Assembly (NCBI GenBank): GCA_031082315.1
Contig: JAVHLC010000001.1
Span: forward strand, 221,224-285,223
Source: Thermodesulfobacteriota bacterium
Lineage (GTDB): Bacteria; Desulfobacterota; QYQD01
Length of the DNA: 64,000 nucleotides
Reading direction: 5' to 3'
Both the position numbers and the translations under genes were made by a program. Of this stretch, positions 3,598 through 19,050 are shown one piece after another. Position 1 is the first letter of the stretch. The number at the start of each line of letters is the position of its first letter. The notes beneath the pieces were generated by a model. That model saw only the letters and a program-made list of their open reading frames with translations. It was not told where the DNA came from and searched no databases.

Positions 3598-3602
3598 AAG
3601 AT

Positions 3603-4310
3603 TTATCGTTTGGCCTTCAGGTGAATAATGTAGTAAGGATAGTCATATGTATAATACCGGTGATACTTCATAATCGGAAATTGCTTCTTGAAACAATTAT
3701 GTATACATTTTAAGTTTCTGGTAATGTGTTGACCCTTATTTCTGTCGCGAAGCAGATGTCTTTTTATTATGCTGGCGAAAGTCTTTAAATGCATCATGCA
3801 AAAAACAGAAGGGGAAGCGATCAAAATATCCACTATACCTATCGACCTAATATCCTCAGAAAAGTTCTTAAGTTCATTATCACTAAAACAGGACTCCATT
3901 TGAAAAAAAAACAGCGAGTCATGCTTACCTTTCAGTTCTTCGTAATTCCCAGTTACAAGGTCAAATTTGCCTATTTTAAGATTTGGTCTCAGCAGCGATT
4001 TCTGTGCGGTTTCTATAGCTCGATTATTATTGTCAAAAACTTCTATCTTCTTATCTGGAAATCTTTCAAGAATCATATAATCCTTAATGGCATCTACCCC
4101 AAATTCCAAAATGTTAGTAAAGCCTTGCTGTCTTGATAGGTAATCACTTATATATCTGCTTATAATAAAAGTATGTGGTTTTCTTATTGCAACCTCTTTA
4201 AAAATCTTTTCTTTTTGTCCGCTTAATAATGTAGCTTTCAGTATATTTTTTTGGTTCTCATCTTTTTCAATAACATTAAAATGAAATTTCAGAGGTATAG
4301 GAAAAAACAT
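3603..4310 (-). CDS. hypothetical protein, possibly a class I SAM-dependent methyltransferase
   Basis: 235 aa, AT-rich. Weak motif-I-like ILEFGVDAI. No firm family assignment. Confidence 0.3.
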   Translation of the reverse strand: MFFPIPLKFHFNVIEKDENQKNILKATLLSGQKEKIFKEVAIRKPHTFIISRYISDYLSRQQGFTNILEFGVDAIKDYMILERFPDKKIEVFDNNNRAIETAQKSLLRPNLKIGKFDLVTGNYEELKGKHDSLFFFQMESCFSDNELKNFSEDIRSIGIVDILIASPSVFCMMHLKTFASIIKRHLLRDRNKGQHITRNLKCIHNCFKKQFPIMKYHRYYTYDYPYYIIHLKAKR

Positions 4311-4361
4311 TTTCCCTCTTAATTACCGGTTGAATATTTCACGACAGAAATCTATGCGTGT

Positions 4362-5939
4362 TTACCACAGATAAAAAAAGCGGTCTATAGAATCTATAAT
4401 TTTTACATCCAGGGGATACTTAAAATAGCGGTGTTTCCAGCGATACCAGGCGATATGGCCCAGCATATCTCGAACAACACCCGGAATATTCAGCCTCTTA
4501 AGCCGCTGCCGGGCAGTTTTCCAACTAAACGGCACACCCCTATGGGAGCACACGGATACTGCCCAGAGATAATCAACCAGGGGGTGCCACTCCGTATGGG
4601 AACGATGCCCGATCCTGAATTGTCCCCAATCGTATAAGGTTTTCGGGGGATCGAATCCCGCCTCCACAACCTTCTTATGGAGAGGGGTTCCCGGACAAGG
4701 GGCATACAAAAATATCTTGCCCAGTTGTACTGTTTCGGGATAGCCGTTGCGTAATTTATCTATGATATCCATGCTGAGTTCTACATCTCTTTTTTCTTCC
4801 CCGGGAAAACCGCACATCAGGTTCGTCATGAACGTCAAACCGGCTTCGTTTATTTGCTCAACGCCGCTTTTTATATCCCCAATGGTGCAATCCTTTTTAA
4901 TATAATCCAATATCTTCTGCGACCCGGACTCAACACCCACATAAACCTCTACAAGCCCTGATTCCTTTGCTCTTTTCCAAAAATCTACAGTGGTTCTTCT
5001 AAAATATTGAGCACGGCAGGAGGCATGCCATTTCATATCAAGCTTCATCCCTATAAGGCCTTCTATCACCGCAGTTGCACGTTTAAAGTCGGCAAAAAAA
5101 CAATCATCTACCAGGATCAGCTTATCGGGCTTGTATTTATCATAAATGCCTTTCATATCCTTTAAAACCATTTCAGCGCTTTTCTTTCTGAATGTCCTTC
5201 TATGGACCACCAAGACATCGCAAAACTGACACCGGTGAGGGCATCCTCGTTCTGACTGGTACAAAAAGCGGCTGAGGTCGTAATTGTCCATATTGAGCAA
5301 ACTGTAATCGAACTCTAATTGATCATTGAAAGAGAAAAAGGGTCTGTCCTGGTTATGAATTATTTCCCCATCCTTTTTATATGAAACACCATCAACTTTG
5401 GACAGGTCTCCGCCGTCTGTCAGACACTTGGCGAGTTCAGCTGCTGTATGCTCGCCCTCTCCCCGAACTACTATGTCTACAAATTCCGATGTTCTTAATG
5501 ACTGCTCCGGAGTCAATGTGACGTGCACGCCTCCAAAAACTATGGGTATTTTTGGATTCACCTTCCTGACGTGCTGCGCACACTGGAGGCCAAAAAAAAC
5601 ACTGCTGCCGGTAAGGCAAGAAATGCCGACAAAAACCACTTTGTCGTCAAGCTCTTCATTAAGTCTCTTGATTGAATCTTCAACCCTTCCATCTATTATT
5701 ACAGGTTCAAATCCGGCCTTTTGCAAATAAGGAGCAAGCGCTAGAACTGATAATGGCAGGGTCACTTTTTTCTGTAAAAGCCGGGAAAAAATATCTCTTG
5801 TTGCCTTGTAAATTAAAGGAGGCAGCTTGTCCTTAAGGTAAAGACCTATCTCTCCAGGCATTATCAATATAATCTTTTGGGCTTTATTGGAACTCATTCT
5901 CTTATTGTCTCTTTCGTATTTTTCCTGATTTGACGGCAC
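4362..5939 (-). CDS. B12-binding domain-containing radical SAM protein
   Basis: 525 aa. N-terminal cobalamin-binding-like Rossmann region (VFVGISCLTGSS...IVFGGVHVT) followed by a CxxxCxxC radical-SAM cluster motif (GCPHRCQFCDV). Confidence 0.75.
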   Translation of the reverse strand: MPSNQEKYERDNKRMSSNKAQKIILIMPGEIGLYLKDKLPPLIYKATRDIFSRLLQKKVTLPLSVLALAPYLQKAGFEPVIIDGRVEDSIKRLNEELDDKVVFVGISCLTGSSVFFGLQCAQHVRKVNPKIPIVFGGVHVTLTPEQSLRTSEFVDIVVRGEGEHTAAELAKCLTDGGDLSKVDGVSYKKDGEIIHNQDRPFFSFNDQLEFDYSLLNMDNYDLSRFLYQSERGCPHRCQFCDVLVVHRRTFRKKSAEMVLKDMKGIYDKYKPDKLILVDDCFFADFKRATAVIEGLIGMKLDMKWHASCRAQYFRRTTVDFWKRAKESGLVEVYVGVESGSQKILDYIKKDCTIGDIKSGVEQINEAGLTFMTNLMCGFPGEEKRDVELSMDIIDKLRNGYPETVQLGKIFLYAPCPGTPLHKKVVEAGFDPPKTLYDWGQFRIGHRSHTEWHPLVDYLWAVSVCSHRGVPFSWKTARQRLKRLNIPGVVRDMLGHIAWYRWKHRYFKYPLDVKIIDSIDRFFYLW

Positions 5940-7564
5940 CTTTTTTGGGCAAGTTCATCCATTCCCCTTAAGGTTTCCTTAAATTTTTTGTTGCCGCTCA
6001 GGTTATCTAACTCACCCGGATCGCTCTCTAAATCATATAACTCACTTGCGCCAGGATTATTGCCCTCGCTCCATATATATTTATATCTTTCCGTCCTGAT
6101 CGCAATATTAATTTTTTTTCTTTTGAGGTCACATGGTCCTCTCCCATTGTTTTCGCTTATTATGAATTCCCTGTCTTTAGCCGTTGAGCTATATACCGGA
6201 ACACCTTTGAACTGGGTTACCGGTCCGATTCCCATCAGATCCAGTATGGTAGGAGCAAGATCCAGCTGACTGCACATATTGGTTATTTTCTCCGGTTTTA
6301 GCCTGGCATTATAGAATATCATTGGCACCCTTATAAACTCGTCATAAAAAAGTGTTGCTTTGTGGCCTGACCGCTTAATACTGTTATCCTCCATTCCGTG
6401 GTCCGATGTAATTACTAATAATGTCTTATCCAACAAATCTTTTTCTTTTAAAAACCGAATCACTTTGCCCAGTTGATCATCAACGTATTTTATAGCTCTT
6501 CTTGTCGCATATTCATTATAATGTCCCTTAATCTCGTCCCTTTTTAACGTGACTCGTTTTTTCAGAAAGCTTCCGGAAATTGGAGGAAGCTGAATTTTGC
6601 CTGATGTATAATTCCCCTCGTGAATATCCAGAAAATGAGCCCATAAAAAAAAGGGGCTCTCACCCCTTTTATCAATCCAATCTATTATGCACTCTCTAAG
6701 ATATTTAGCACTAACAAAATGATCGTATTTTTTCAAGATATAAGAGTAACCGAATCCAAGCTTATTTTGAAGTCTTACCATTATATCTTCGATCGTTGCA
6801 TTAATGTATGCCTCCATTACTCCAAATGGGCTCTCCCCATACCTAGCAATATTAATAATCCGGTCGTATTTCAACTGCATATCAAATTGCTTTGACAGAT
6901 ATTCCTGCGGATTATTTTCGTATAGATCCAGCTCTCTTAATATCAGTTTTCTAAGCCTTGAATAATCATACGCATGGATAATAGGATTGTATCCAAAAGT
7001 ATTTTCCTTTATCTCGCGATTTTTTTCTTCACAAAACAAAACCAGATATTTGTATGATGCCTTTACTGCTTTGCCTGTAACTTCGCAGAATTCCTCGAAA
7101 TTGATTAATCCCTCTTTCATTAACTGGACGTAATAAGAAAAAAAATTCTTACTCAAGGATTTCCAGAACCTTTTTATGTTGTATATCTCGTGAAATTCGT
7201 CAAATCCCCTATCGTAATAATAAAATCTTCCCAAGAAGTTTACCGTGGCAAAGCCAGCGGTATAAAAACCGTTTCTTTTCATTACCTCCGTAAGGGTTAT
7301 TTCCCTGTTCTTTATCCCCCTGTTATATCCGCCACAATCTAACGGCAAAGTGGATGTAAAAATAGATGGGAAAGCCATTTGCGTCGGCTGTCCGTTTGAA
7401 AATGCATTTGCGCAAGATATGCCTTTCTTTGACAAATCATCCAGGAAAGGCGTGAGGCTTTCGGATTCCGTTGAATTTCCCAGTCTTGTATATGAAAGCG
7501 CGTCAATCGACAGAAATATTATGTTTTGCATTGTTAACGATGTGTCCAATAGGTGCTTTTCCAT
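5894..7564 (-). CDS. alkaline-phosphatase superfamily protein (sulfatase-like fold; Thr-nucleophile phosphotransferase-type rather than a formylglycine sulfatase)
   Basis: 556 aa. N-terminal IFLSIDALSYTRLG and the metal-site motif ITSDHGME. At the position where sulfatases carry C/S-x-P-x-R, the sequence reads GQPTQMAF, with Thr as in LtaS/EptA-type enzymes. No obvious TM segments. Confidence 0.5.
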   Translation of the reverse strand: MEKHLLDTSLTMQNIIFLSIDALSYTRLGNSTESESLTPFLDDLSKKGISCANAFSNGQPTQMAFPSIFTSTLPLDCGGYNRGIKNREITLTEVMKRNGFYTAGFATVNFLGRFYYYDRGFDEFHEIYNIKRFWKSLSKNFFSYYVQLMKEGLINFEEFCEVTGKAVKASYKYLVLFCEEKNREIKENTFGYNPIIHAYDYSRLRKLILRELDLYENNPQEYLSKQFDMQLKYDRIINIARYGESPFGVMEAYINATIEDIMVRLQNKLGFGYSYILKKYDHFVSAKYLRECIIDWIDKRGESPFFLWAHFLDIHEGNYTSGKIQLPPISGSFLKKRVTLKRDEIKGHYNEYATRRAIKYVDDQLGKVIRFLKEKDLLDKTLLVITSDHGMEDNSIKRSGHKATLFYDEFIRVPMIFYNARLKPEKITNMCSQLDLAPTILDLMGIGPVTQFKGVPVYSSTAKDREFIISENNGRGPCDLKRKKINIAIRTERYKYIWSEGNNPGASELYDLESDPGELDNLSGNKKFKETLRGMDELAQKRCRQIRKNTKETIRE

Positions 7565-7659
7565 ATTTCACAGGGAATACTATCTAATAAAACAGCGGCC
7601 ATGCACAAAGATACCCTTTCTTTACCGTCTGCTCCATATATAAAAACTGCCCACTAAGG

Positions 7660-8211
7660 TTATCCTAATTCCTTCTTGAAAAGAAGGCGCTGTTCGATTA
7701 TTTTTTCTGCAAAAGTGGTAAAGTTGTTGGTTTCCTCGTTGTTTTCCAGTACCAAATCACTATTTATCGGTTCTTCAAAGGAAAGATCAACGCCCACAAC
7801 GTTTTTCTCATCCCCTTTCATTGCTTTGCTATATAGGCTTTTCTGATCTCTCTTCAGCAGAACTTCCATTGAAACCTTGACATATATCTGGAAATAATTG
7901 TCTATGTTATTGCGGTTCCAGCATTGCACCTCATGATACAGCGACATTGTCGCGCAAACAACATTGACCCCCTGATCCGCAAGAAAGCAGCACATCCTTG
8001 AGATCCTATATGCGTTTTTTATTCTGTCTTTAGTGTTGTGCTGCAAATCGTTTCCCATTATTTCTCGCATTGCATCGCCATCCAGAAAAACTGCTTTTTC
8101 ATTCCTTGCAACAAGCGCTTTGAATAAAGCCAGCGCAATGCTTGTTTTACCTGCGCCGGCAAGCCCGGTGATCCAGTAAACAGTGCCTGTCTTATCCAGC
8201 TTTATATGCAT
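7660..8211 (-). CDS. cysC: adenylyl-sulfate (APS) kinase
   Basis: 183 aa. P-loop VYWITGLAGAGKTSIA and overall APS-kinase layout. Overlaps the next gene by 10 nt (operonic). Confidence 0.75.
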   Translation of the reverse strand: MHIKLDKTGTVYWITGLAGAGKTSIALALFKALVARNEKAVFLDGDAMREIMGNDLQHNTKDRIKNAYRISRMCCFLADQGVNVVCATMSLYHEVQCWNRNNIDNYFQIYVKVSMEVLLKRDQKSLYSKAMKGDEKNVVGVDLSFEEPINSDLVLENNEETNNFTTFAEKIIEQRLLFKKELG

Positions 8212-9005
8212 TGTCTCCGGTCGATACTAAGGGAATCGCCCACAGCCCTGCAAAAAGATTCAGCTAGGCGAAGATCGCGGAGGCTGTCTATTTCCACCCA
8301 TTTTCCATTGATAGGGATCTCGTAAACAGGCATATCCTCATCAATCAGCTCCTGAAGCATATCCGTCATGTAAAGCGTGTCTATCCTCATTTTTTCTCCG
8401 CCTTCTTGAGAAGACAGAAGGGTTGCTTCCTCGCTGTATTTGCGCCGCAGGACAGACAACCCATTACCCTGAAACACCATCAGGCCTATGTACTGCCCCT
8501 GTATATTCTCCACCTTGTCAGGTTTCTGACCGATCTCAAGTATCCTTCCGTCGGAATCAAGTTTCAGACTTTCGGCATCATCCAGGACGCTTTCAAAGCG
8601 CTTTTCCCAGTAAGAACGCCAATCGTGATCAACAACAACGCCGATCTCATGCCGGCATGAGACGACTTTCTCAAGAACTTCAGGTTCATAAACAATATCT
8701 CCATAGGAAACAACGATGCCTGAATCGAAGAATTTTTCCGCGTACCACAAAGTCCGCAGCATGTTTGTCTGCGCATATCTGGGATTTATGGCTATTGTCC
8801 ACTTCCCGCCTGGAATCGTTTCCGCTTTATGCCCGGCAACGATAACTATATCTTTTTCATTAACCCCGACCTTTTGTGCTGATAGTATCTGCCATTCAAG
8901 CAAATTTCTGCCGGCAAGCGGTAGCATACACTTGGGAATTTCGGTGGTAAGAGGCTGCAATCGCTGCCCCATGCCTGCTGCAAGTATAATCAGTTTCTTG
9001 CTCAT
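8202..9005 (-). CDS. sugar-phosphate or alcohol-phosphate nucleotidyltransferase (MobA/LicC-like NTP-transferase fold)
   Basis: 267 aa. N-terminal LIILAAGMGQRLQPLTTEIPKCMLPLAGRNLLEW signature of nucleotidyltransferases. Confidence 0.6.
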   Translation of the reverse strand: MSKKLIILAAGMGQRLQPLTTEIPKCMLPLAGRNLLEWQILSAQKVGVNEKDIVIVAGHKAETIPGGKWTIAINPRYAQTNMLRTLWYAEKFFDSGIVVSYGDIVYEPEVLEKVVSCRHEIGVVVDHDWRSYWEKRFESVLDDAESLKLDSDGRILEIGQKPDKVENIQGQYIGLMVFQGNGLSVLRRKYSEEATLLSSQEGGEKMRIDTLYMTDMLQELIDEDMPVYEIPINGKWVEIDSLRDLRLAESFCRAVGDSLSIDRRQCI

Positions 9006-9664
9006 GCCTGTTTGAAAATGTCAAAAAGCCAGGTATCGACTCCCCTGGCCGGATTGTTTCTTTCCGGATGCCACTGTACACCCCAGAAAGGCAGCCGTTT
9101 ATGCTTAATCCCTTCCACTATTCCATTGTCATCAACCGCGAAAGGATACATGTCCGGAGCGAGTGTTTCCAGGCTGACCCCGTGGTTATGGTATGAATTG
9201 ACTTCAAATCGAGCCTCCCACTCATGGGGCAATTCAATATAGTCCCTCAATAGGGTTACAGCATGCATCTTGTTTACATGGGTCCCTTTTCCTTTATCCG
9301 CCAGAAAGGGAACTATGGAGCCGCCGTAATAGCAGTTAAGTACGTGTAACCCGCGGCATACACCGACAACCGGAATGTACTTCTCTTCAGCAAAACGAAT
9401 CAGGCTTTCCTCCAGCGAGTCTCTTTCAGCGGCGCTATCAGGAGATCCTTCTATTCCGTAATCATTCCCGCTTGTCAAAAGAACGCCGTCGATATTCCCA
9501 AGCGCACTAAGGAAAGACAACGGGGAAGAGATTGCATTGGGGATAAGAACGGGACAGATATTCCTCTTTTCCAAAAAACCTATCCAGTCGTGGCTTATTG
9601 CATCCCTTTTTTCAGAGTAATTCTGATTTTCTATTACCCTAAGAGTGACTGCTACTTTCACCAT
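9002..9664 (-). CDS. class I glutamine amidotransferase-like / gamma-glutamyl hydrolase (peptidase C26, PuuD-like)
   Basis: GVCRGLHVLN nucleophile elbow and GVQWHPE His motif. Start moved to the internal Met (MVKVAVTLRVIEN) to avoid an 88-nt overlap with the upstream gene; the ORF track gives 9002..9757. Confidence 0.6.
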   Translation of the reverse strand: MVKVAVTLRVIENQNYSEKRDAISHDWIGFLEKRNICPVLIPNAISSPLSFLSALGNIDGVLLTSGNDYGIEGSPDSAAERDSLEESLIRFAEEKYIPVVGVCRGLHVLNCYYGGSIVPFLADKGKGTHVNKMHAVTLLRDYIELPHEWEARFEVNSYHNHGVSLETLAPDMYPFAVDDNGIVEGIKHKRLPFWGVQWHPERNNPARGVDTWLFDIFKQA

Positions 9665-9669
9665 AATTT

Positions 9670-12600
9670 CTAATCTATGATATTTACTCTCTTGCTCGAA
9701 CAGTCCAGCGTTATGAACCGGGAGTTGGAGACACGCTTGAAAAGAATCTCGCCGCATCCAATAGCTGCCGGCAGACCAAACTCAGCGGCCCTTATGGCCA
9801 TGTGCGAGGCAACCCCGCCGTATTGCGTAATAAGTCCTGCTATACCATGTACGAATATCCAGTCGAAGCCCGGATCAGCATTTCTTATGGCAACTATCTT
9901 TCCTTTTATGTTTTTACCCCATGTTGCGTGTTCCTCAAGAAGGATCACCTCGCCGCTGACCGTTTTAGAAGTAACAAAATTTGGTTTGCATTCAAGCAGC
10001 TCGAAGCTGTCTGAATCACCCGGCGTGCGGATGAGGTGGGGAAGCTTTATCGACTGATTGAGTTCGTACCTCTTTTTCTCGAATGAAATAAGTCGCCTAA
10101 GCTTGCTGGATATGGCGCTATGCCGGCTGTTATTGGTCCAGTTCAATATATCGTGTATAGAAAGGTGGGATAACTGGTCTTTGTCCAGTCCCCAGTAGCT
10201 ATTAAGTTTGGTGATCCACTCCAATGCAAGATTTACATTCTTGGTAAATTCGAACTTCGCAAATTCTCTTCCGCTGACCGCAGCGAAAATAAATTCCCGA
10301 AGCTGCGAAGGAGTGCATTTCATCCCGTTTTCATTGAGCATGTCTTCTATTTGGGAGAATTTTGTTTCCAGCAATTCCCATGCAGAAGATACCGCCTTCA
10401 GGCAGTTTCCGGAAGAGCGTTTGCCTATAGCCGGATTCAAATAAACATGTGCGGCCTCACGGTAATTGGGTGAAAGGATGTCATATGTTCCCGGCCGCAG
10501 GTGTCCGTACTTTCCAAGAAATTCCTCCCTGGACATACTGCCATTCAGCGTTAATTCCAGTGCATCTGCTATCTCGGTGGCGATAGTGGGAATATGCAAA
10601 CAAGCTTCATATTCCTCCTCCGTAAGCACTTCCTTGTTCTTCAAAGAGCGGAGGATTGCAAGCGCAATAAATCCATACCTGGCCAGAATACTGAATGGCA
10701 GGGTCCCATACCGGGAGCAGTCGTCCAATAATTGTTTAATCCTTGCCGGCATGGCTACCCTGCTGTCAGATGCCCCGATAAGGAGCACCCGCCTTCTCTC
10801 CATTTCCTTCAGGGCGTCCAGTTGCCGGCCGATCGGCATTATTTCACCTTTTATTATCCTATCCGTCTGTATAAGCAATGCCCGTTTAAGCTCTTCAATC
10901 TCTGACGCCGCAAGTCCCATTGAAAACAGGCGCCTGGAGTGTTCATCGAAGTCAAATGTAAAGCAGGTAACAGCAACTTCAAATTCTATTTTGTCGTGAT
11001 ATTCCGGGTTTTCAGCCAGATAACCGAGGTAACCATTAACGCATTTCTCTGCCGTCGCCCCGCTCACTTCGGCGGGGATGAAAGAGTTAAAGCTGACCCT
11101 CAGATCTATATATGGCTGCCCTGAAACCACAATCATAAGAGGAGACGGATAGGTATCCCTGTAACCTATCAATTTTCTAGCCTCTCCCCACACCCTGTCC
11201 GTAATCAGGTAATGGTAAAGCGAGATCGCCAGCAACCGTGGATGGGTGCCGATCATCTCCGCCGGGTTCCAGTCTGACATGTTGCTCAGAAGAGATGATT
11301 TGCCAAGCAGGTTTGTACTTAATTGAAAGGCCTCGGCCACAATCCTCTTTGCTTCCGTTATTTCAAAATCAAAATCATCGTCCGTAGGAATAAAATGCCG
11401 GCGCTTGGCGGCAATAGGCCGCACTTGCAGTACATATATACGACCGCTTTCATGCATGGCAAACTCAATGTCCAGTGAGTCATAACCAACCAGTGTTTCC
11501 ACTTCCCTTGCCATTTCTATAACTGACAAAAGCCTTTCATCGAGAGCGGAGAGGTCTCCTTTCTTATAGGCTAAAACGGTTTTAAGACCGTCGCTTGTGC
11601 CCGCAGTAACGGTGTCTGTTCGTTCCGTAACATGATAATTGATCACGTAATAGGGAGCACGTGTTTCAATGTCCCTTGTAAAAAGAACCCCACACATCAC
11701 AGTAGAATCAACAAAAGGCTGTATCAGCACCTGGTTGCCATCCTCCTCGGCGCCGTTTTCTCTGTAACTTGCTATGACCTTCTCGACGGCCTGCTTAATG
11801 TGCCGGGTAGAACCCGCATCAACATCAAGCACGCTTTTAAAACGTCCGGCGTTGGATGCCAACCATGCATCTTCCACCAAAGCGGAGCTCCTTACGACCA
11901 GTCGTTCAGTCTTTAAATGTGATCCAATTTTTTCTAAGACGGGCCCTTGCGCCGTCTGCCATTCCCTGACAGTGAATCTTACCTGGTCGAGAATCACGGC
12001 TGTTTTTAATAAAGGCTGTAAACGCTCAAGAGTTTGCGCCTTGCTCCCCAGAACAAAGCGGGCCAGTTCTCCGGGCCGGGTTAAAGAGGACCAATAGCCG
12101 GTAAGATCGACAAGCTGTACATCCACACCAGCTTCCAGCAGTTCCCGGACGAGGTCATGCAATTCAAGTGTCAGGTCCTTTTTTGTCAGCTCTTTAGCCT
12201 TATCAATCAGCGCTCCTGCACCGACATATGAGCATTTAATTAGTCCGGCGAATCTTATCTTTTTTCCCGCCTTATTGGGATAAAACAATACATGTTCGGT
12301 TAACTCCCCCGTCCCTCCCTCTGTTACAGGCTCGATACCAAATACAAGATCGGCCCTTTCTTTCAACAATGCCTTGACCGCTTTTGGACGGAATACACTC
12401 CTGCCGTCAATTACCAACCCGCCTTTTCGTACAAGATATTCCGCATCAAGCAGAGCCTTGAGAGTCCCTTCCTTCTCCCAGTTAGAGTGAAAATGGTAAT
12501 GCAGGTCCGGATATTGCTGAACCACCTTTTCCATGTGGTAGCCGCCTATGTATGTTATGGAAGATATCCCTTCTTTCTTTAAGGCGGCAATGTTCCAATC

Positions 12601-12708
12601 CAGCGCCGATTCATTGCTGCGTATCTTTTTAAGCGAAGTTGGATAACTCTTTTTTGAGTCCAGGAAGCGTACGCCGTAAGAGGAGTCAATTATTATCGTA
12701 TTGATCAT
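9670..12708 (-). CDS. PEP-utilising enzyme family protein (PEP synthase / pyruvate-phosphate-dikinase-like phosphotransferase) with extra N-terminal domain
   Basis: 1012 aa. Central PPDK_N/ATP-grasp-like region (RSSALVEDAWLASNAGRFKSV) and C-terminal PEP-utiliser mobile His domain (GGVASHMAIRAAEFGLPAAIGCG). The N-terminal ~250 aa form an additional nucleotide-binding-like domain. Confidence 0.6.
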   Translation of the reverse strand: MINTIIIDSSYGVRFLDSKKSYPTSLKKIRSNESALDWNIAALKKEGISSITYIGGYHMEKVVQQYPDLHYHFHSNWEKEGTLKALLDAEYLVRKGGLVIDGRSVFRPKAVKALLKERADLVFGIEPVTEGGTGELTEHVLFYPNKAGKKIRFAGLIKCSYVGAGALIDKAKELTKKDLTLELHDLVRELLEAGVDVQLVDLTGYWSSLTRPGELARFVLGSKAQTLERLQPLLKTAVILDQVRFTVREWQTAQGPVLEKIGSHLKTERLVVRSSALVEDAWLASNAGRFKSVLDVDAGSTRHIKQAVEKVIASYRENGAEEDGNQVLIQPFVDSTVMCGVLFTRDIETRAPYYVINYHVTERTDTVTAGTSDGLKTVLAYKKGDLSALDERLLSVIEMAREVETLVGYDSLDIEFAMHESGRIYVLQVRPIAAKRRHFIPTDDDFDFEITEAKRIVAEAFQLSTNLLGKSSLLSNMSDWNPAEMIGTHPRLLAISLYHYLITDRVWGEARKLIGYRDTYPSPLMIVVSGQPYIDLRVSFNSFIPAEVSGATAEKCVNGYLGYLAENPEYHDKIEFEVAVTCFTFDFDEHSRRLFSMGLAASEIEELKRALLIQTDRIIKGEIMPIGRQLDALKEMERRRVLLIGASDSRVAMPARIKQLLDDCSRYGTLPFSILARYGFIALAILRSLKNKEVLTEEEYEACLHIPTIATEIADALELTLNGSMSREEFLGKYGHLRPGTYDILSPNYREAAHVYLNPAIGKRSSGNCLKAVSSAWELLETKFSQIEDMLNENGMKCTPSQLREFIFAAVSGREFAKFEFTKNVNLALEWITKLNSYWGLDKDQLSHLSIHDILNWTNNSRHSAISSKLRRLISFEKKRYELNQSIKLPHLIRTPGDSDSFELLECKPNFVTSKTVSGEVILLEEHATWGKNIKGKIVAIRNADPGFDWIFVHGIAGLITQYGGVASHMAIRAAEFGLPAAIGCGEILFKRVSNSRFITLDCSSKRVNIID

Positions 12709-12747
12709 TGCTGCATCAGGGGCAAACGATAGCGGGTTGCCAACAGT

Positions 12748-13776
12748 CTAACCATTTACAAGACTTTTTGATGTCCGATAGATGCCCTGCATGGTTTTGA
12801 AAACGTTTAACCTTATAAATATTAACAGCAAAAATTCCCGCATGGGGAGATGCTTTAAGGTGTGGATATTCGCTTTTGGATATTTCCAGTAAAAGAATGG
12901 TCGAAATTGCGAAAGCGCATAGCTAAGGCAATCGATTTCCTTCTTATCCAGACTATCTTTATGTGATCCTATAGGCTCTCTGGAGATACCGTTAAATTTA
13001 ATGTTTTGCTGTGAATTTCCTGACCACGGTATGCCATAGCTTGTTGGTGTTTTTAAAGAATCGTGGAAAGATATTTTTAGAAAGTCACATATCTTTTTAA
13101 TATTTTCTTCCTGGCCTTCCAGCAAGTCTTCAAACCGAATGATCATTATCCTTTGGGGATTTCTTTTCTTCAACCATACAATTTTTCTACTTGATTCAAG
13201 CCACTCGTTACAGAACGAAACGGCCGTAACGACACCGCCTTTCTTCTTCATTTTTTTCCGGTACGAGGCGAAATTATCATAAGGGTCCCGCACTAAGTGT
13301 ATAGCTTTTGCATTGGGATACCATTTGAAAAAAAGATCCAGATAAAGCTCGTTGCCATGGGTCTTTTCAATCCACATCTTCGGTTTTGTGCCTTTAAACC
13401 GGGACTTCTCATAAAAGCTCTTTAATAAACTCAATTGCAGGCTTTTTGCCGATTCTCCATCCCAATTCTCCTTAATACTATGACTAAACGCTTCAAAATC
13501 AAAATCGTTATAGTCACGATCCCCGCCTGCTAGAGATGCTCTTTTATGATGAAGACTGTAGATACCTGTTTCCGGCCCGGATGTTAAAAATTTTTCTATA
13601 TTGAAATCATTTACAAACAAACCGTCACGTCTTATTATAGCCCGAAGGTTTGTTTCAACAGGCATAACAAGAAGTTCAGGATGGCCATCTAAAATGTTCC
13701 TCAAAAGAGTTGTTCCGGATGTAGCATGGCCGGTAATAAAAACAGGGTGGTCTAAAAATCCATACTCTGACATCAT
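12748..13776 (-). CDS. PAPS-dependent sulfotransferase
   Basis: 342 aa. 5'-PSB-like FITGHATSGTTLL and classic 3'-PB motif HLVRDPYDNFAS. Confidence 0.7.
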   Translation of the reverse strand: MMSEYGFLDHPVFITGHATSGTTLLRNILDGHPELLVMPVETNLRAIIRRDGLFVNDFNIEKFLTSGPETGIYSLHHKRASLAGGDRDYNDFDFEAFSHSIKENWDGESAKSLQLSLLKSFYEKSRFKGTKPKMWIEKTHGNELYLDLFFKWYPNAKAIHLVRDPYDNFASYRKKMKKKGGVVTAVSFCNEWLESSRKIVWLKKRNPQRIMIIRFEDLLEGQEENIKKICDFLKISFHDSLKTPTSYGIPWSGNSQQNIKFNGISREPIGSHKDSLDKKEIDCLSYALSQFRPFFYWKYPKANIHTLKHLPMREFLLLIFIRLNVFKTMQGIYRTSKSLVNG

Positions 13777-13779
13777 GCT

Positions 13780-15213
13780 TCAATTCAGCCCTGCTGATTT
13801 TCCATCGGCAACGCTTTCTATTAACTTTGCAACCCGCAAACCTGCCTTCCCATCGTTAAACGGGTTGTACTTCAGTTGCAATTCGTTTCTCTGTTTTGAT
13901 TTTTCCTTTGGATGTTTCAGCGCATTTTTTATAAGCTCAACGAGATTTGACGGGGATGAAGCTATATCGGGCGCTCCTGTGGCCATCATCGGCTGATAGC
14001 AGGGATATTCAAGCTCATGCCTTCCAAACTCATCCTGCTCGCTGCCTTTCAGACCTGTCCACTCGTATATAGGCCAGATGATCGGCTTATCAAAATATAC
14101 GGAGTCAAGTGTAATTGTTGATGCGTAGTTGATTATCACGTCGCTGTGCTTCAAAAGGTTTCCAAGGTGGTAAAGAGAGGACGGATCGTTCTTCCATCTG
14201 TGATCCGGCCTTATACTTGGAAAGCACGAGCTATCGGGCACATCGTATATAACATCGGGTATCGGCCCAAGAGTATGACAGTACTGAAGCCTTGTAAGAC
14301 CATGTATTTCACGGATAATCAATTGTGCTTTTTCCGCAAATCCTCCGTTCTGAATAGTCTCAATAATTGATCTGATGTTTTCGCTTTCCTTGTAGTTTGA
14401 ATATTTGCCGCCCCTCGATATATACGTGATGACTTTTTTTGAAGGATCCGCCCCGATGCTTTTTAAAAACGCCGAACGTTCCATAAGCCAGTCATCGTTA
14501 AGGAGGTAATCATGTTGTGGAATGCCTACCGTAAGCACGCTTTCCTCTTTTAACTGAGGATAAAGATAGAGCATCTCGCTTCTCATGATTTCATTCCAGA
14601 CAGTAATATAATCGGCGGGTTCCAGTATTCTCCCTTTCGCTGTAAGGTTATCCCAGCTATGTATCATGCTTATGGTCGGAATGCGGCGATGTTTTGCGTT
14701 AATGACCAACTGCACATCGCCGTCAACGAAGGGGTGTGATGAAAACAAGGCTGAGGGCTTATATTCGTCTATCATATTTTGGTAGTAGGGGCTGATGTAA
14801 ATCTTGCGGACGTAATCAACAGCCCGGCGGTTTAAGAAGGGAAACAGGATAAATATTTTTCCGAAAATGCGATTGAAAAGTTCATCACGTTTGTTAAACT
14901 TGTCTTTCAAAATCAGGTTCAGGGGAACTCCGTGAAAAGACTTCCCGTTGTAAAAGTAGTAGCGGTCTCCATAACGATAAATTCTGAAAATCAGCTTATT
15001 AAGCAAGCTTTTTTTAATTTCAAACACCGATGGTTTAATAACAACGTTTTCTCTTTTAAACTCTTTGTTAAACTCAGGATCATCTGCCATGCTTGAGAAA
15101 ATAACAGTCCTGAACCTGGATGCAAGGTAGTCATAGAAGGGATTGCGGAGGAAGTTCCGGGCAGACATAGGATACGGTAACGAAAGAAATATAGTTTTCT
15201 GCCCGGACATCAC
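13780..15213 (-). CDS. hypothetical protein, possibly TagB/TagF-like CDP-alcohol glycerophosphotransferase family
   Basis: 477 aa, soluble. Weak resemblance to TagF C-terminal motifs (KKVITYISRGG...; YASTITLDSVYFDKPII). Confidence 0.3.
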   Translation of the reverse strand: MMSGQKTIFLSLPYPMSARNFLRNPFYDYLASRFRTVIFSSMADDPEFNKEFKRENVVIKPSVFEIKKSLLNKLIFRIYRYGDRYYFYNGKSFHGVPLNLILKDKFNKRDELFNRIFGKIFILFPFLNRRAVDYVRKIYISPYYQNMIDEYKPSALFSSHPFVDGDVQLVINAKHRRIPTISMIHSWDNLTAKGRILEPADYITVWNEIMRSEMLYLYPQLKEESVLTVGIPQHDYLLNDDWLMERSAFLKSIGADPSKKVITYISRGGKYSNYKESENIRSIIETIQNGGFAEKAQLIIREIHGLTRLQYCHTLGPIPDVIYDVPDSSCFPSIRPDHRWKNDPSSLYHLGNLLKHSDVIINYASTITLDSVYFDKPIIWPIYEWTGLKGSEQDEFGRHELEYPCYQPMMATGAPDIASSPSNLVELIKNALKHPKEKSKQRNELQLKYNPFNDGKAGLRVAKLIESVADGKSAGLN

Positions 15214-15286: not shown

Positions 15287-16438
15287 TCACCCCTTATTTC
15301 CTCGCACGAAATCCATGAACCTTTCTTTCACTTGCACAGGGCTCAGGTTTGGTCTGCCAAGGTCGGAAGCCGCTCCGCTTTTGACTTTCACATGGACGAT
15401 GTGAGGCCCGGGTGACGCGCACGCCCTTTTGATCTCTTTCTCCAGTTCCTCTCTCTCATAAACTGTTACCGCCGATGCAAAACCGCATGCTATCGCTATT
15501 TCAGGAAAATTTACGGAGCCGGACAAGGTCTGCTGGCCACCGGTAGATTCGTATGCCTCATTATCCAGCAAGAAGTGAATGTAATTGGAGGGAGCAAAAT
15601 GACCTATTGAAACCCACGACTCCAGGCGCATAAGCGCCGCTCCATCACCGTCAAGAACGGCGACTCTTTTTCCCGGCTGATACATGGCAAGCCCGAGTCC
15701 GATGCTGGACGCGCATCCCATTGAGCCCACAATGTACATCTGGTTAGGGAGGTCATGCATCGCAAATAGCTCTCTTGATATCTTTCCCGTGGTAGAAACA
15801 ACCATGGTCTGCATCCCCAGAAGCCCCGTGATTATCTCAATCGCTCCCGCACGGCGCAATCTGAGATCACCTCTTTTAGCACACGGGATCAGTTTCCCCC
15901 TGTAAAGGCGCTTGCCCTCATTTTTTGCAGTCTCTACTTTTTCAACCGAGTCCTTACGCATTATGAAAGAGTAGGGGAGACCGCTTTTTTCCATTGTATC
16001 CAGCGCGGCATCTATGCCCTTTTCAATGTTTTCTTCCTTGTCTGGAAAGAAATCGTTTTTCACTTTCATTATGTCCAGCATATCAACCGTTATTTTTCCC
16101 ATTAGCTCATGTTGTGGTTCATCCTTTATCCCGGTTTCTCCACGCAGGGTTATAATCATCAAAATAGGAATCCGATAAACGTAATTCAGAGAGGTTAACG
16201 GGCTCACACAATTCCCCAGCCCGGAGTTCTGCATCATTACAACCGGGCGCTTTCCGGCAAGATAGGCGCCGGTTGCCACGGCAACCGCTTCTCCCTCATT
16301 GTTTACCGGGAGATATTCCAACTTTTCCGATTTAATAGCATAATTGATCAACGGTTTTATAAAGGAGCAGGGAACACCAATAAACGGATTTTGCCCTTTT
16401 GAATTAAGGAGTTCTAAAAAATTACCAGCCCTAATCAA
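15287..16438 (-). CDS. phosphonopyruvate decarboxylase (TPP-dependent, fused alpha/beta)
   Basis: 383 aa two-domain TPP enzyme with the GDG(X)n-N motif (LDGDGAALMRLESW). The size and context, next to a PEP mutase and an AEP transaminase, fit Ppd/AepY. Confidence 0.7.
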   Translation of the reverse strand: MIRAGNFLELLNSKGQNPFIGVPCSFIKPLINYAIKSEKLEYLPVNNEGEAVAVATGAYLAGKRPVVMMQNSGLGNCVSPLTSLNYVYRIPILMIITLRGETGIKDEPQHELMGKITVDMLDIMKVKNDFFPDKEENIEKGIDAALDTMEKSGLPYSFIMRKDSVEKVETAKNEGKRLYRGKLIPCAKRGDLRLRRAGAIEIITGLLGMQTMVVSTTGKISRELFAMHDLPNQMYIVGSMGCASSIGLGLAMYQPGKRVAVLDGDGAALMRLESWVSIGHFAPSNYIHFLLDNEAYESTGGQQTLSGSVNFPEIAIACGFASAVTVYEREELEKEIKRACASPGPHIVHVKVKSGAASDLGRPNLSPVQVKERFMDFVRGNKG

Positions 16439-18324: not shown

Positions 18325-19050
18325 CTATCTAACCCAAACTGATACATGGAATCTGAACCTGGCGTTGCCGTATTTTTCCTCTGGCCATTCAAGGATCGCG
18401 GCCCTCAAACCATACGATTTGAAGAAATCCGTAAAAAATCCCTTCGTGAAATAGAGATGGCTAAAATCCCCTTCAGATCCTGTCCGGTAGTTCTTCCCAT
18501 CGCTCTCCGCCAGGGACTTGCGCCTTCCCTCGCTCTCTTCTTTTTTTTCCATGTCCGGCACATCGGATATCAGAAGCCCTCCTCCCTTTTTAAGAACACG
18601 CAGCATCTCTGCCATAACTTCCTTTGCGTAATCTTCGTGAGGAAAGTAGTGAAAAACCCCGTGCGATAATACCCTTGAAAAAGAGCCGTCGGGAAATGGT
18701 ATTGAAGAGGCTTCTGAAACTTTTATCTCGGCATCCGGTACGGCTTTTTGGGCAATGCTGACAAGCGGAGCGGAGTAATCTATTCCCGCCAGATTCAGGT
18801 TCATGGCAGAAAGAGGCAACAGCATTGCGCCGGAACCACAGCCAACTTCAAGCAGTGAATCGGCTTCATAGAGTTTCAAGCTGGCCTTAATATTCTCAAC
18901 TCGTTCCGTCCACATCTTCTCATCCATCTTTCCTGCCCCACCATCAAAGCCGTCAGCAGTGATCAGCTCGGAAAGGGTGATGCCTTTAGCTTCCCGCCCC
19001 TTTCTTTCCCAGACGTTTTTCCAGCTTTCAAACCTTTTTTCCCTTTTCAT
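18325..19050 (-). CDS. class I SAM-dependent methyltransferase
   Basis: 241 aa. Motif I LLEVGCGSGAML. Confidence 0.6.
   Translation of the reverse strand: MKREKRFESWKNVWERKGREAKGITLSELITADGFDGGAGKMDEKMWTERVENIKASLKLYEADSLLEVGCGSGAMLLPLSAMNLNLAGIDYSAPLVSIAQKAVPDAEIKVSEASSIPFPDGSFSRVLSHGVFHYFPHEDYAKEVMAEMLRVLKKGGGLLISDVPDMEKKEESEGRRKSLAESDGKNYRTGSEGDFSHLYFTKGFFTDFFKSYGLRAAILEWPEEKYGNARFRFHVSVWVR

What the first reader, a model, noticed from the sequence alone, without database searches (positions are those of the whole stretch)
5894..13776. PAPS-generation and sulfation module inside the same glycan operon
An APS kinase (7660..8211) and a PAPS-type sulfotransferase with clear 5'-PSB and 3'-PB motifs (12748..13776) are co-transcribed with the glycan genes, which implies a sulfated polysaccharide. 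The neighbouring 556-aa alkaline-phosphatase-superfamily protein (5894..7564) has the sulfatase fold and the SDHG metal site, but it carries Thr where formylglycine sulfatases carry the C/S-x-P-x-R nucleophile. That makes it more like the Thr-dependent phospho-alcohol transferases (LtaS/EptA type). It could therefore be the enzyme that moves a phospho- or phosphono-head group onto the polymer. Bacterial glycans carrying both sulfate and phosphonate would be highly unusual.
Basis: partly seen in the sequence, partly recalled or inferred. Interest (0 to 1): 0.6.

Follow-up and report, generated by a model that had tools for sequence, protein, structure and literature searches.

The report
Phosphoramidate-donor pathway, not PAPS synthesis
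The gene read as an APS kinase is the last of four enzymes that make a nitrogen-phosphorus (phosphoramidate) donor first described in Campylobacter capsules, so this operon probably decorates a sugar polymer with phosphoramidate and phosphonate groups, and sulfation is unproven.

Summary
The three ORFs exist as described, all on the minus strand of one long glycan operon in a Thermodesulfobacteriota MAG.

**Kinase (7660-8211).** It is not a PAPS-generating CysC. It ends a four-gene block, 7660-12708, that matches the C. jejuni Cj1418-Cj1415 pathway: glutamine kinase, gamma-glutamyl-CDP-amidate hydrolase, cytidylyltransferase, cytidine diphosphoramidate kinase. That pathway makes 3'-phospho-CDP-amidate. 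A close relative's cluster carries this kinase and, separately, a canonical cysC next to cysDN.

**Sulfotransferase (12748-13776).** The fold is real, and the 3'-phosphate motif and the catalytic Glu are present. It carries Thr where 114 of 120 homologues have the catalytic Lys/Arg. Across 83 glutamine-kinase loci, sulfotransferase-fold genes occur only where this kinase occurs (12/26 vs 0/57). It may therefore use the PAPS-like phosphoramidate donor. True sulfation with PAPS made elsewhere is about equally likely.

**Sulfatase-like protein (5894-7564).** The Thr nucleophile is confirmed, with no CxPxR motif. It belongs to a large uncharacterised soluble clade found beside kinase-type phosphoramidate genes or phosphonate genes.

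No PAPS synthesis is encoded in the window.

The parts
9670..12708 (-). L-glutamine kinase homologue (Cj1418 type), 1012 aa. Residues ~215-1012 hold the PPDK_N ATP-grasp and the PEP-utilizers swivel domain, with an invariant His969. Residues ~1-215 are an extra nucleotidyltransferase-like domain.
   Evidence: NCBIfam PRK05849 scores 869 bits against a cut-off of 501 over residues 215-1011. Pfam finds PPDK_N and PEP-utilizers. Homologues at 36-41% identity are named 'glutamine kinase' by JGI. Invariant GGxxSHM is seen in alignment A1.
9002..9757 (-). Class-I glutamine-amidotransferase / Peptidase_C26 hydrolase, candidate gamma-glutamyl-CDP-amidate hydrolase (Cj1417 type). The real start is probably the Met at about 9664, giving ~220 aa as in relatives.
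   Evidence: The best NCBIfam hit is NF045546, gamma-glutamyl-CDP-amidate hydrolase, at E 4e-29 and 102 bits, which is below the equivalog cut-off of 250. A homologue is present in 73 of 80 glutamine-kinase loci. The orthologues in L007 and L006 are 219-220 aa.
8202..9005 (-). Nucleotidyltransferase, candidate CTP:phosphoglutamine cytidylyltransferase (Cj1416 type).
   Evidence: Pfam finds NTP_transferase and NTP_transf_3. A homologue is present in 76 of 80 glutamine-kinase loci. The gene overlaps both neighbours by 4 and 10 nt. NCBI names it 'phosphocholine cytidylyltransferase family'.
7660..8211 (-). APS-kinase-fold kinase of the Cj1415 clade, candidate cytidine diphosphoramidate 3'-kinase.
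   Evidence: It passes the PRK05541 subfamily model only. It is 33% identical to a canonical CysC and 49-73% identical to kinases linked to glutamine-kinase genes. Both aromatic positions conserved as Phe in the three CysC-type sequences aligned are changed (His and Val). 'FISP' is replaced by 'TMSL'.
12748..13776 (-). Sulfotransferase-fold protein lying between the TagF-like gene and the glutamine kinase. It has Thr in place of the PSB-loop Lys/Arg. It is a candidate transferase for 3'-phospho-CDP-amidate, or a true PAPS sulfotransferase.
   Evidence: Pfam Sulfotransfer_3. The AF2 model has pLDDT 92, and the top Foldseek hits are CurM ST, OLS ST and TPST1/2. Association with the kinase is 12/26 vs 0/57 loci.
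13780..15213 (-). TagF-like (Glyphos_transf) CDP-activated phospho-head-group transferase. It is a candidate transferase for CMP-aminoethylphosphonate or CDP-amidate.
   Evidence: Pfam Glyphos_transf at E 1e-11. It is conserved next to the sulfotransferase in L006 and L007. Its family, c21, was found only in kinase-type loci: WIN, L006, L007, L030, L031 and L040.
5894..7564 (-). Soluble alkaline-phosphatase-superfamily protein with S1-sulfatase architecture, a Thr nucleophile (motif PTQxxxP) and a ~170-residue helical insertion. It is a candidate phospho-head-group transferase or by-product phosphodiesterase.
18325..19050 (-). SAM methyltransferase (241 aa). Its family recurs in 12 glutamine-kinase loci, 9 of them kinase-type.
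   Evidence: Pfam and clustering.
19882..20790 (-). SAM methyltransferase (302 aa). Its family is present in 40 of 83 glutamine-kinase loci. It is a candidate O-methyltransferase of the phosphoramidate.
   Evidence: Pfam and clustering.
19082..19855 (-). Membrane CDP-alcohol phosphatidyltransferase-family protein with six hydrophobic segments. It is another possible user of a CMP- or CDP-activated head group.
   Evidence: Pfam and hydrophobic segments. A member of the same family follows the methyltransferase in L082 (Pfam-tested) and, by clustering, in L065.
20795..22456 (-). PEP mutase fused to a nucleotidyltransferase. This is the entry step of the phosphonate branch.
   Evidence: TIGR02320 PEP_mutase scores 340 bits against a cut-off of 319.6, and NTP_transf_3 is also found.
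15287..17601 (-). Phosphonopyruvate decarboxylase-like TPP enzyme (15287-16438) and class-V aminotransferase (16435-17601). Together they form the 2-aminoethylphosphonate branch.
   Evidence: Pfam finds TPP_enzyme_N/C and Aminotran_5.
3603..5939 (-). B12-binding radical SAM enzyme (4362-5939) and a conserved 235-aa protein with no family hit (3603-4310). Both are syntenic in relative L007.

Best explanation
**Proposed pathway.** Genes 7660-12708 encode the four-enzyme route to the activated phosphoramidate donor known from Campylobacter jejuni capsule O-methyl phosphoramidate (MeOPN) synthesis.
1. A glutamine kinase phosphorylates the amide N of L-glutamine.
2. A cytidylyltransferase joins it to CMP, giving CDP-glutamine.
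3. A C26 amidohydrolase releases glutamate, leaving CDP-amidate.
4. The APS-kinase-fold enzyme (7660-8211) phosphorylates the 3'-OH, giving 3'-phospho-CDP-amidate. This is a structural analogue of PAPS.

**Consequence.** The window encodes no PAPS synthesis. The operon also makes CMP-activated 2-aminoethylphosphonate, so the product is most likely a glycan carrying phosphoramidate and phosphonate groups. The phosphoramidate is possibly O-methylated.

**Which enzyme moves the phosphoramidate** is inferred, not shown. These are my own estimates.
- Sulfotransferase-fold protein 12748-13776, using the 3'-phosphorylated donor: about 0.4.
- Thr-type sulfatase-like protein 5894-7564: about 0.25.
- TagF-like protein 13780-15213: about 0.25.

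**Shown:** homology, synteny, clade membership and co-occurrence statistics. **Inferred:** substrates and products.
For: **Gene order and coupling.** The four genes are contiguous. Two junctions overlap by 4 and 10 nt. The third has an ~88-nt ORF overlap that shrinks to a ~5-nt gap with the likely start.

**Family scores.**
- The glutamine kinase scores PRK05849 869 bits.
- The C26 protein's best hit is gamma-glutamyl-CDP-amidate hydrolase.
- The kinase passes only the PRK05541 subfamily model.

**Literature.** Cj1415-Cj1418 make CDP-phosphoramidate 3'-phosphate from glutamine, ATP and CTP (PMC11800397; PMC6429109).

**Natural control.** The relative's contig (L001/L006/L091) has a canonical CysC next to cysD/cysN, scoring PRK03846 284 bits. 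It also has a second, 179-aa kinase, 73% identical to the window's, directly after the C26 and NTP-transferase genes.

**Kinase relatives.** Its nearest homologues include JGI-named 'cytidine diphosphoramidate kinase' proteins. They also include kinases from Sulfuricurvum, Marinarcus and Arcobacteraceae modules of the form kinase-MT-GlnK-C26-NTPt.

**Distribution.** In 80 genome loci anchored on the glutamine kinase, 73 carry the C26 gene and 76 the NTP transferase. In 23 of the 80 a kinase closer to the window's than to CysC lies on the same strand within 0-5 kb. With the window and two relatives this makes the 26 kinase-type loci used in the tests.

**Signature residues.** The kinase clade differs from the CysC-type sequences at the two conserved Phe positions and at FISP.

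**Transferase inference.**
- Sulfotransferase-fold genes occur in 12/26 kinase-type loci and 0/57 kinase-less loci (p=1e-7).
- Strong matches (hmmsearch E<1e-70) to TagF-like family c6, defined in the full report, occur in 0/26 vs 23/57 (p=4e-5).
- In Sulfuricurvum a sulfotransferase-family gene overlaps the kinase start. It sits in the slot held by a TagF-like gene in Marinarcus.
Against: - No C. jejuni sequence could be fetched. Orthology to Cj1415-Cj1418 therefore rests on family models, source names, Campylobacterota relatives and synteny, not on a direct alignment.
- The C26 and NTP-transferase proteins score below any equivalog cut-off.

**Against the sulfotransferase as phosphoramidate transferase.**
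- Its nearest outgroup (33-35% identity, PKSGTT loop) sits in nonulosonic-acid clusters with no glutamine kinase or kinase within 10 kb. Those are probably true sulfotransferases.
- The relative's operon begins with a sulfate transporter, cysC, cysD and cysN, and has no other visible sulfotransferase.
- Some kinase-type loci carry TagF-like genes instead.
- The association could be confounded by cluster type. Only four kinase-less loci have nonulosonic-acid genes.
- Many loci are cut by contig ends, so absences are soft.
Confidence: 0.8

Rival explanations
1. Hybrid reading. The four genes make the phosphoramidate donor, but 12748-13776 is a genuine PAPS-dependent sulfotransferase supplied by PAPS made elsewhere in the genome. 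The glycan then carries sulfate as well as phosphoramidate and phosphonate. The phosphoramidate is moved by the TagF-like or the sulfatase-like protein.
For: - The sulfotransferase fold, the 3'-PB motif and the Glu base are intact.
- The nearest outgroup sulfotransferases, in two of three cases beside a TagF-like gene, sit in NeuB-type clusters without any glutamine kinase. The window also has NeuB and a CMP-sugar synthetase.
- The 62%-identical orthologue sits in an operon headed by a sulfate ABC transporter, cysC, cysD and cysN. cysN overlaps the next gene by 7 nt.
- TagF-like genes are frequent partners of the pathway elsewhere.
Against: - The catalytic PSB Lys/Arg is Thr (or Ala) in exactly this clade and K/R in 114/120 homologues.
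- No PAPS synthesis gene is in the window.
- Sulfotransferase-family genes in glutamine-kinase loci occur only with the Cj1415-like kinase.
- The gene sits directly against the glutamine kinase in all three relatives.
Confidence: 0.4
2. 7660-8211 is an APS kinase that turns cellular APS into PAPS for the sulfotransferase. The neighbouring PEP-utilizer, C26 and NTP-transferase genes are unrelated.
For: - Pfam APS_kinase at E 3e-35, with the P-loop and DGD motif intact.
- NCBI annotates it 'adenylyl-sulfate kinase'.
- Sulfate-reducing relatives would have abundant APS (general knowledge).
- The kinase and sulfotransferase families co-occur.
Against: - It scores below the curated cut-offs of the CysC equivalog models.
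- It is 33% identical to a canonical CysC and about 50% identical to Campylobacterota MeOPN-module kinases.
- The relative carries a canonical cysC in addition.
- The kinase is present in 14 glutamine-kinase loci that have no sulfotransferase. It always lies within the GlnK-C26-NTPt block.
- The two Phe positions conserved in the aligned CysC-type sequences are replaced.
Confidence: 0.07
3. The sulfatase-like protein is not a transferase. It is a hydrolase that clears the 3',5'-cytidine bisphosphate by-product or trims a phosphodiester, playing the role CysQ plays for PAP.
For: - It is soluble, with an S1-sulfatase (hydrolase) architecture.
- In the 83 glutamine-kinase-anchored loci (80 from the genome scan plus the window and two relatives), its clade occurs only where the kinase occurs: 5/26 vs 0/57.
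- Another kinase-type locus carries an Inositol_P/CysQ-family gene instead (L141).
Against: - Relatives also sit beside PepM+Ppd genes with no kinase (L095, L119) and in nonulosonic-acid clusters.
- In Haloferax elongans it is the first gene of a five-gene operon with no other transferase candidate.
Confidence: 0.3

Closest known systems
Campylobacter jejuni MeOPN donor pathway: Cj1418 L-glutamine kinase, Cj1416 CTP:phosphoglutamine cytidylyltransferase, Cj1417 gamma-glutamyl-CDP-amidate hydrolase, Cj1415 cytidine diphosphoramidate kinase
   Same: The same four enzyme families lie in one contiguous block inside a surface-glycan operon, with SAM methyltransferases nearby. The kinase is about 50% identical to kinases of Campylobacterota modules with the same content.
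   Different: - The glutamine kinase has an extra ~215-residue N-terminal nucleotidyltransferase-like domain. It is 1012 aa, against ~773-776 aa in the Campylobacterota modules.
- The gene order differs.
- The block sits inside a phosphonate operon.
- Its partner genes are a sulfotransferase-fold protein, a Thr-type sulfatase-like protein and a TagF-like protein. Their relation to the C. jejuni transferases Cj1421/Cj1422 could not be tested.
Canonical APS kinase CysC (TIGR00455 / PRK03846)
   Same: The P-loop kinase fold, the GxxGxGKT loop and the DGD motif are shared. Solved APS kinases match at E 1e-25.
   Different: It scores below the curated cut-offs. It has no cysDN/sat partner. 'DLGF', 'HFTG' and 'FISP' are replaced by 'DLQH', 'NVVG' and 'TMSL'. 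It is 33% identical to the CysC of the relative's cluster.
PAPS-dependent sulfotransferases of the CurM ST / TPST type (PF13469)
   Same: Fold (Foldseek E 1e-9, probability 1.0), the SGTT loop, the 3'-phosphate-binding RDP...S motif, and a Glu at the general-base position.
   Different: Thr replaces the PSB Lys/Arg. The Arg of 'RDPR' is Tyr, as it is in CurM ST. The gene is fixed next to a glutamine kinase. No PAPS supply is encoded in the locus.
S1 formylglycine sulfatases / phosphonate monoester hydrolases, and the Thr-dependent LtaS/EptA transferases
   Same: It has the two-domain S1 architecture and the Asp/Asp-His metal site, like S1 sulfatases. It has a Thr nucleophile, like LtaS/EptA.
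   Different: There is no C/S-x-P-x-R motif, so no formylglycine. There is no membrane anchor, unlike LtaS/EptA. It has a ~170-residue helical insertion. Its own conserved motif is PTQ[FM]x[FL]P.
Nucleotide-activated phosphonate decoration (PepM-cytidylyltransferase fusions of the PntC type)
   Same: The PepM-nucleotidyltransferase fusion, Ppd and the AEP transaminase are in the same operon. A PntC-aminotransferase fusion structure, 6pd1, weakly matches the Cj1416-like transferase.
   Different: Here the phosphonate genes are interleaved with a phosphoramidate donor pathway. A similar pairing has been noted in Borg elements (bioRxiv 10.1101/2024.11.05.622173).

Membership tests
APS kinase CysC (PAPS synthesis) | Scores above the curated cut-off of the equivalog models | tested here: not met
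   TIGR00455 scores 130.1 against 138.7 and PRK03846 scores 108.9 against 163. The CysC of the relative scores 269 and 284 on the same models.
APS kinase CysC (PAPS synthesis) | Conserved APS-site residues: two aromatic residues and the FISP motif | tested here: not met
   'DLGF', 'HFTG' and 'FISP' in three CysC-type sequences read 'DLQH', 'NVVG' and 'TMSL' in the window. The same holds across the clade linked to glutamine kinases. That the two Phe stack on adenine is recalled from the P. chrysogenum structure and was not re-derived here.
APS kinase CysC (PAPS synthesis) | Genomic link to ATP sulfurylase (cysDN or sat) | tested here: not met
   None is present in the 64-kb window. The rest of the MAG was not searchable.
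Cj1415-type cytidine diphosphoramidate kinase | APS-kinase fold encoded inside a block with glutamine kinase, C26 hydrolase and nucleotidyltransferase | tested here: met
   Window gene order. The same linkage is seen in 23 of the 80 genome loci, plus the window and relatives L006 and L007 (26 kinase-type loci in all), and in L089, L090 and L139-L141.
Cj1415-type cytidine diphosphoramidate kinase | Closer to characterised Cj1415 than to CysC | tested here: inconclusive
   The Cj1415 sequence could not be obtained. Proxies are 49-53% identity to JGI-named 'cytidine diphosphoramidate kinase' proteins and to Campylobacterota module kinases, against 33% to CysC.
Cj1415-type cytidine diphosphoramidate kinase | Phosphorylates CDP-amidate at the 3'-OH | not testable with these tools
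   This needs an enzyme assay.
Cj1418-type L-glutamine kinase | ATP-grasp plus phosphohistidine swivel domain with a catalytic His, and family model above cut-off | tested here: met
   PRK05849 scores 869 against 501. His969 lies in an invariant GGxxSHM. Homologues carry JGI 'glutamine kinase' names. That PRK05849 contains Cj1418 is from memory.
PAPS-dependent sulfotransferase | Sulfotransferase fold | tested here: met
   AF2 pLDDT is 92. All top Foldseek hits are sulfotransferases.
PAPS-dependent sulfotransferase | 5'-PSB loop with catalytic Lys/Arg before SGTT | tested here: not met
   The window reads 'GHATSGTT'. The position is K or R in 114/120 homologues and in CurM ST, OLS ST and TPST2.
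PAPS-dependent sulfotransferase | 3'-phosphate-binding motif (Arg...Ser) and general base | tested here: met
   R163 is invariant in 'VRDPYDNFAS'. The Glu in 'PVET' aligns with the 'PPEL' Glu of CurM ST.
PAPS-dependent sulfotransferase | Uses PAPS as donor | not testable with these tools
   This needs an assay with PAPS against 3'-phospho-CDP-amidate.
S1 formylglycine sulfatase | C/S-x-P-x-R formylglycine motif | tested here: not met
   T-Q-M-A-F occupies the place of S-T-P-S-R. The best 150 representatives have T in 139, S in 7, and no CxPxR.
S1 formylglycine sulfatase | Two-domain S1 fold and metal ligands | tested here: met
   The top 50 Foldseek hits are S1 sulfatases or phosphonate monoester hydrolases at E 1e-18. 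D21, D388 and H389 are invariant.
LtaS/EptA-type phospho-alcohol transferase | Thr nucleophile | tested here: met
LtaS/EptA-type phospho-alcohol transferase | N-terminal multi-pass membrane domain with an extracytoplasmic catalytic domain | tested here: not met
   No hydrophobic segment is found in the window protein or its clade. The sulfatase-family proteins of kinase-less loci have five.

The most novel reading that the evidence does not exclude
Sulfotransferase-fold proteins encoded beside Cj1415-like kinases, including 12748-13776, are phosphoramidate transferases. They would take 3'-phospho-CDP-amidate in place of PAPS. This would explain why the pathway 3'-phosphorylates its donor. It would also give the sulfotransferase fold a new reaction: transfer of a P-N group. 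Pathways that lack the kinase would instead use TagF-like enzymes with plain CDP-amidate. The soluble Thr-type 'sulfatases' would be a third, uncharacterised class of head-group enzymes for phosphoramidate and phosphonate.
Probability: 0.35. Interest if true: 0.8.

Novelty: new variant of a known kind. Interest (0 to 1): 0.6.

Why it matters
- **Annotation.** The public record names these genes 'adenylyl-sulfate kinase' and 'sulfotransferase'. Anyone reading it would infer sulfation.
- **Distribution.** A 2022 review still calls the glutamine kinase C. jejuni-specific (PMC9561416). Relatives were confirmed in at least 582 stretches of species-representative genomes, in bacteria and archaea.
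- **A testable split.** Kinase-containing loci carry sulfotransferase-fold or soluble Thr-sulfatase-like genes. Kinase-less loci carry family-c6 TagF-like genes, and some also carry membrane LtaS-like genes. This gives a testable answer to two open questions. First, why is the donor 3'-phosphorylated? Second, which enzymes transfer phosphoramidate outside Campylobacter?
- **Chemistry.** A glycan carrying both C-P and N-P groups, and possibly sulfate, in a Thermodesulfobacteriota organism would be chemically unusual.

Tried and rejected
- **C. jejuni sequences.** I could not obtain Cj1415-Cj1422. The top 120 lists held no Campylobacter entry, the genome scan kept only the 80 best loci, and the key Raushel papers are not held. 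The fold of the real MeOPN transferases therefore remains untested.
- **Solved structures.** Sequence searches of solved structures with the kinase, the glutamine kinase, the C26 protein and the NTP transferase returned only generic relatives.
- **Literature.** Searches for a link between sulfotransferases and phosphoramidate transfer found nothing relevant.
- **Promoters and terminators.** The scan over 1-20000 gave no more sites than shuffled sequence, so operon structure rests on strand and spacing only.
- **Defence systems.** PADLOC gave nothing meaningful, so a defence role was dropped.
- **Clean dichotomy rejected.** The idea 'kinase means sulfotransferase, no kinase means TagF' does not hold strictly. 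L012, L084, L087, L089 and L141 carry TagF-like genes related to family c6, and L139 and L140 carry other GT-B/Glyphos_transf-type genes, beside the kinase.
- **Thr as a hallmark rejected.** Loss of the PSB Lys/Arg is not general among kinase-linked sulfotransferases. Other such proteins keep Arg.
- **Methyltransferases.** BLAST between the module methyltransferases of L089, L090, L139 and L140 and the window ORFs found nothing, so no window methyltransferase can be equated with them.
- **Donor base.** Clade-specific residue analysis of the sulfotransferase did not reveal the donor base.

Full report
**1. What is there**

The window's first ~36 kb is one minus-strand run of glycan genes.
- 7660-8211: Pfam APS_kinase, E 3e-35.
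- 12748-13776: Sulfotransfer_3, E 5e-26.
- 5894-7564: Sulfatase, E 6e-35.

Around them lie several groups of genes.
- **A phosphonate branch.** It comprises the PepM-nucleotidyltransferase fusion 20795-22456, the Ppd-like TPP enzyme 15287-16438, the class-V aminotransferase 16435-17601 and a further NTP_transf_3 protein.
- **Two methyltransferases** and a CDP-alcohol phosphatidyltransferase.
- **A TagF-like Glyphos_transf protein** at 13780-15213.
- **Glycan assembly genes.** These are a flippase, NeuB and a CMP-sugar synthetase, a GT4 and a heparinase-like protein.

Beyond 36 kb the genes are housekeeping (radA, dnaB, lptD, uvrD, dnaX). An identical 1012-aa protein is on record from a Thermodesulfobacteriota MAG on a 404-kb contig. 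NCBI names the kinase 'adenylyl-sulfate kinase' and the transferase 'sulfotransferase'.

**2. The 'APS kinase' belongs to a phosphoramidate pathway**

- A 1012-aa PPDK_N/PEP-utilizers protein. It scores NCBIfam PRK05849 869 bits against a cut-off of 501.
- A Peptidase_C26 amidohydrolase. Its best NCBIfam hit is gamma-glutamyl-CDP-amidate hydrolase, at 102 bits, which is below the equivalog cut-off.
- A nucleotidyltransferase.

With the kinase, this is the enzyme set Cj1418, Cj1417, Cj1416 and Cj1415. In C. jejuni that set makes CDP-phosphoramidate 3'-phosphate from glutamine, ATP and CTP. The product is the presumed donor of the capsule O-methyl phosphoramidate (MeOPN) (PMC11800397; PMC6429109).

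Four lines of evidence place the kinase in the Cj1415 clade rather than with CysC.
- **Family models.** It fails the curated cut-offs of the CysC models and passes only subfamily PRK05541.
- **A natural control.** A related contig (L001/L006/L091) shares 62-73% protein identity and the same gene content. It carries two APS-kinase-family genes. One is a canonical CysC, scoring PRK03846 284 bits, next to cysD and cysN. The other is a 179-aa gene directly after the C26 and NTP-transferase genes. The window kinase is 73% identical to the second and 33% identical to the first.
- **Nearest homologues.** Among its 511 homologues, the nearest are 49-73% identical. They include proteins JGI names 'cytidine diphosphoramidate kinase'. 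They also include kinases of Sulfuricurvum, Marinarcus and Arcobacteraceae. There the order is transferase-kinase-methyltransferase-short glutamine kinase-C26-NTP transferase, partly in flagellin-glycosylation loci.
- **Signature residues.** The linked clade differs from the CysC-type sequences aligned at 'DLGF', 'HFTG' and 'FISP'.

**3. Comparative survey**

A genome scan with an alignment of glutamine-kinase homologues confirmed at least 582 matching stretches and returned 80 loci from many phyla, including archaea. Together with the window and two relatives, this gave 83 loci for the tests.
- tblastn found C26 homologues in 73 of the 80 scan loci and NTP-transferase homologues in 76.
- A Cj1415-like kinase was found in 23 of the 80 scan loci, or 26 of the 83. 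It lies on the same strand, within 0-5 kb of the glutamine kinase.

I clustered all ORFs of these loci by sequence similarity and numbered the families. TagF-like proteins fall into c6, c21 and c99, and the soluble sulfatase-like clade is c26. Clustering and HMM searches then showed a split.

| Gene family | Kinase-type loci (n=26) | Kinase-less loci (n=57) | Fisher p |
|---|---|---|---|
| Sulfotransferase-family ORF (E<1e-15) | 12 | 0 | 1e-7 |
| TagF-like family c6, strong matches (E<1e-70) | 0 | 23 | 4e-5 |
| Soluble sulfatase-like clade (c26) | 5 | 0 | 0.002 |

In the kinase-less loci, the c6 gene is often accompanied by membrane-anchored sulfatase/LtaS-like proteins and a YidC-like protein.

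In Sulfuricurvum, a Sulfotransfer_1 gene overlaps the kinase start. It sits in the position held by a TagF-like gene in Marinarcus.

The split is not absolute. Several kinase-type loci have TagF-like or other GT-B-type genes beside the kinase.

**4. The sulfotransferase-fold protein**

- The AF2 model (pLDDT 92) matches CurM ST, OLS ST and TPST1/2.
- The SGTT loop, the invariant Arg163 of 'VRDPYDNFAS' and the Glu of 'PVET' are conserved.
- The residue before SGTT is Thr. It is K/R in 114 of 120 homologues and in the solved enzymes. Only the window's own clade has Thr, or Ala in L007.
- The nearest outgroup enzymes keep PKSGTT. They sit in NeuB-type clusters without a glutamine kinase, and two of the three have a TagF-like gene nearby.
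- The relative's operon starts with cysC-cysD-cysN.

Two readings are therefore about equally likely.
- It is a true sulfotransferase fed by PAPS made elsewhere.
- It is a recruit that uses the PAPS-like 3'-phospho-CDP-amidate.

The loss of the Lys/Arg is explained by neither reading.

**5. The sulfatase-like protein**

Thr sits at the formylglycine position and there is no C/S-x-P-x-R.
- The family is large: 407 representatives at E<=1e-30. The nucleophile column is Thr or Ser in all of the best 150 that cover it.
- The protein has no membrane segment.
- The model (pLDDT 91) is closest to S1 sulfatases and phosphonate monoester hydrolases, and it has a large helical insertion.
- A metagenome scan shows three kinds of context. 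The closest relatives sit beside Cj1415-like kinase and glutamine-kinase genes. Others sit beside PepM+Ppd (+Fe-ADH) without those genes. More distant ones sit in nonulosonic-acid clusters.
- In Haloferax elongans it is the first gene of a five-gene operon with the four pathway genes.

**6. Verdict**

The module is a MeOPN-type phosphoramidate-donor pathway embedded in a phosphonate glycan operon. PAPS generation is not encoded. Sulfation is possible but unproven. The comparative pattern suggests new transferase classes for phosphoramidate.

Noticed in passing
window 9670-12708, residues 1-215 of the product: The glutamine kinase carries an extra N-terminal nucleotidyltransferase-like domain. 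Most of the ~1000-aa homologues in many phyla share it. The Campylobacterota versions (773-776 aa) lack it. Its role is unknown, since a separate cytidylyltransferase is also encoded.
   Followed up: partly
L010 15133-15828, L082 7698-8369, L020 15674-16336, L141 8552-9301; fused in L061 6702-7784: In many kinase-type loci a second, ~220-250-aa paralogue follows the kinase directly, before a methyltransferase. It has a degenerate P-loop and no Pfam hit. The window has no copy.
   Followed up: partly
L011, L015-L017, L019, L021, L024, L026 and others (kinase-less glutamine-kinase loci): Kinase-less loci form a distinct architecture. A ~384-aa TagF-like protein is often followed by a five-helix membrane sulfatase/LtaS-like protein and a YidC-like (60KD_IMP) protein. 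This suggests a periplasmic or membrane step.
   Followed up: partly
L141 10075-10884: An Inositol_P (CysQ-type bisphosphate nucleotidase family) gene lies 1.5 kb downstream of a Cj1415-like kinase. This fits a need to clear a 3',5'-bisphosphonucleotide by-product.
   Followed up: no
window 4362-5939; L091 13376-18985: A B12-binding radical SAM enzyme follows the sulfatase-like gene, and the relative has three. Its best NCBIfam hits (HpnJ, ApyD, PhpK family) are all far below cut-off. It may C- or P-methylate the phosphonate.
   Followed up: no
window 3603-4310: A conserved 235-aa protein has no Pfam, NCBIfam or PADLOC hit. It is 34% identical to a syntenic gene in L007. A 'LEFGVD' stretch faintly resembles a SAM-binding motif.
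   Followed up: partly
window 82-2247: A heparinase II/III-like protein is the last gene of the operon. A polysaccharide lyase-type protein is odd in a biosynthetic cluster. It is syntenic in L007.
   Followed up: no
L095 6163-11603 and L119 4844-11476: Relatives of the sulfatase-like protein sit beside PepM and Ppd. In L095 an Fe-alcohol dehydrogenase is also present, which points to a hydroxyethylphosphonate route. No glutamine kinase is present in either. This links the family to phosphonate as well as phosphoramidate chemistry.
   Followed up: partly
L063 6211-7995 and L081 6352-8175 (Cohnella): A different soluble Thr-type sulfatase-family protein, with an N-terminal extra domain, lies directly upstream of an APS-kinase-family gene next to a glutamine kinase. 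That kinase is intermediate between CysC and the Cj1415-like clade.
   Followed up: no
window 26717-27520 and 29160-29828: NUDIX-like and HAD-family hydrolase genes sit inside the glycan operon. They may act on nucleotide-activated intermediates.
   Followed up: no
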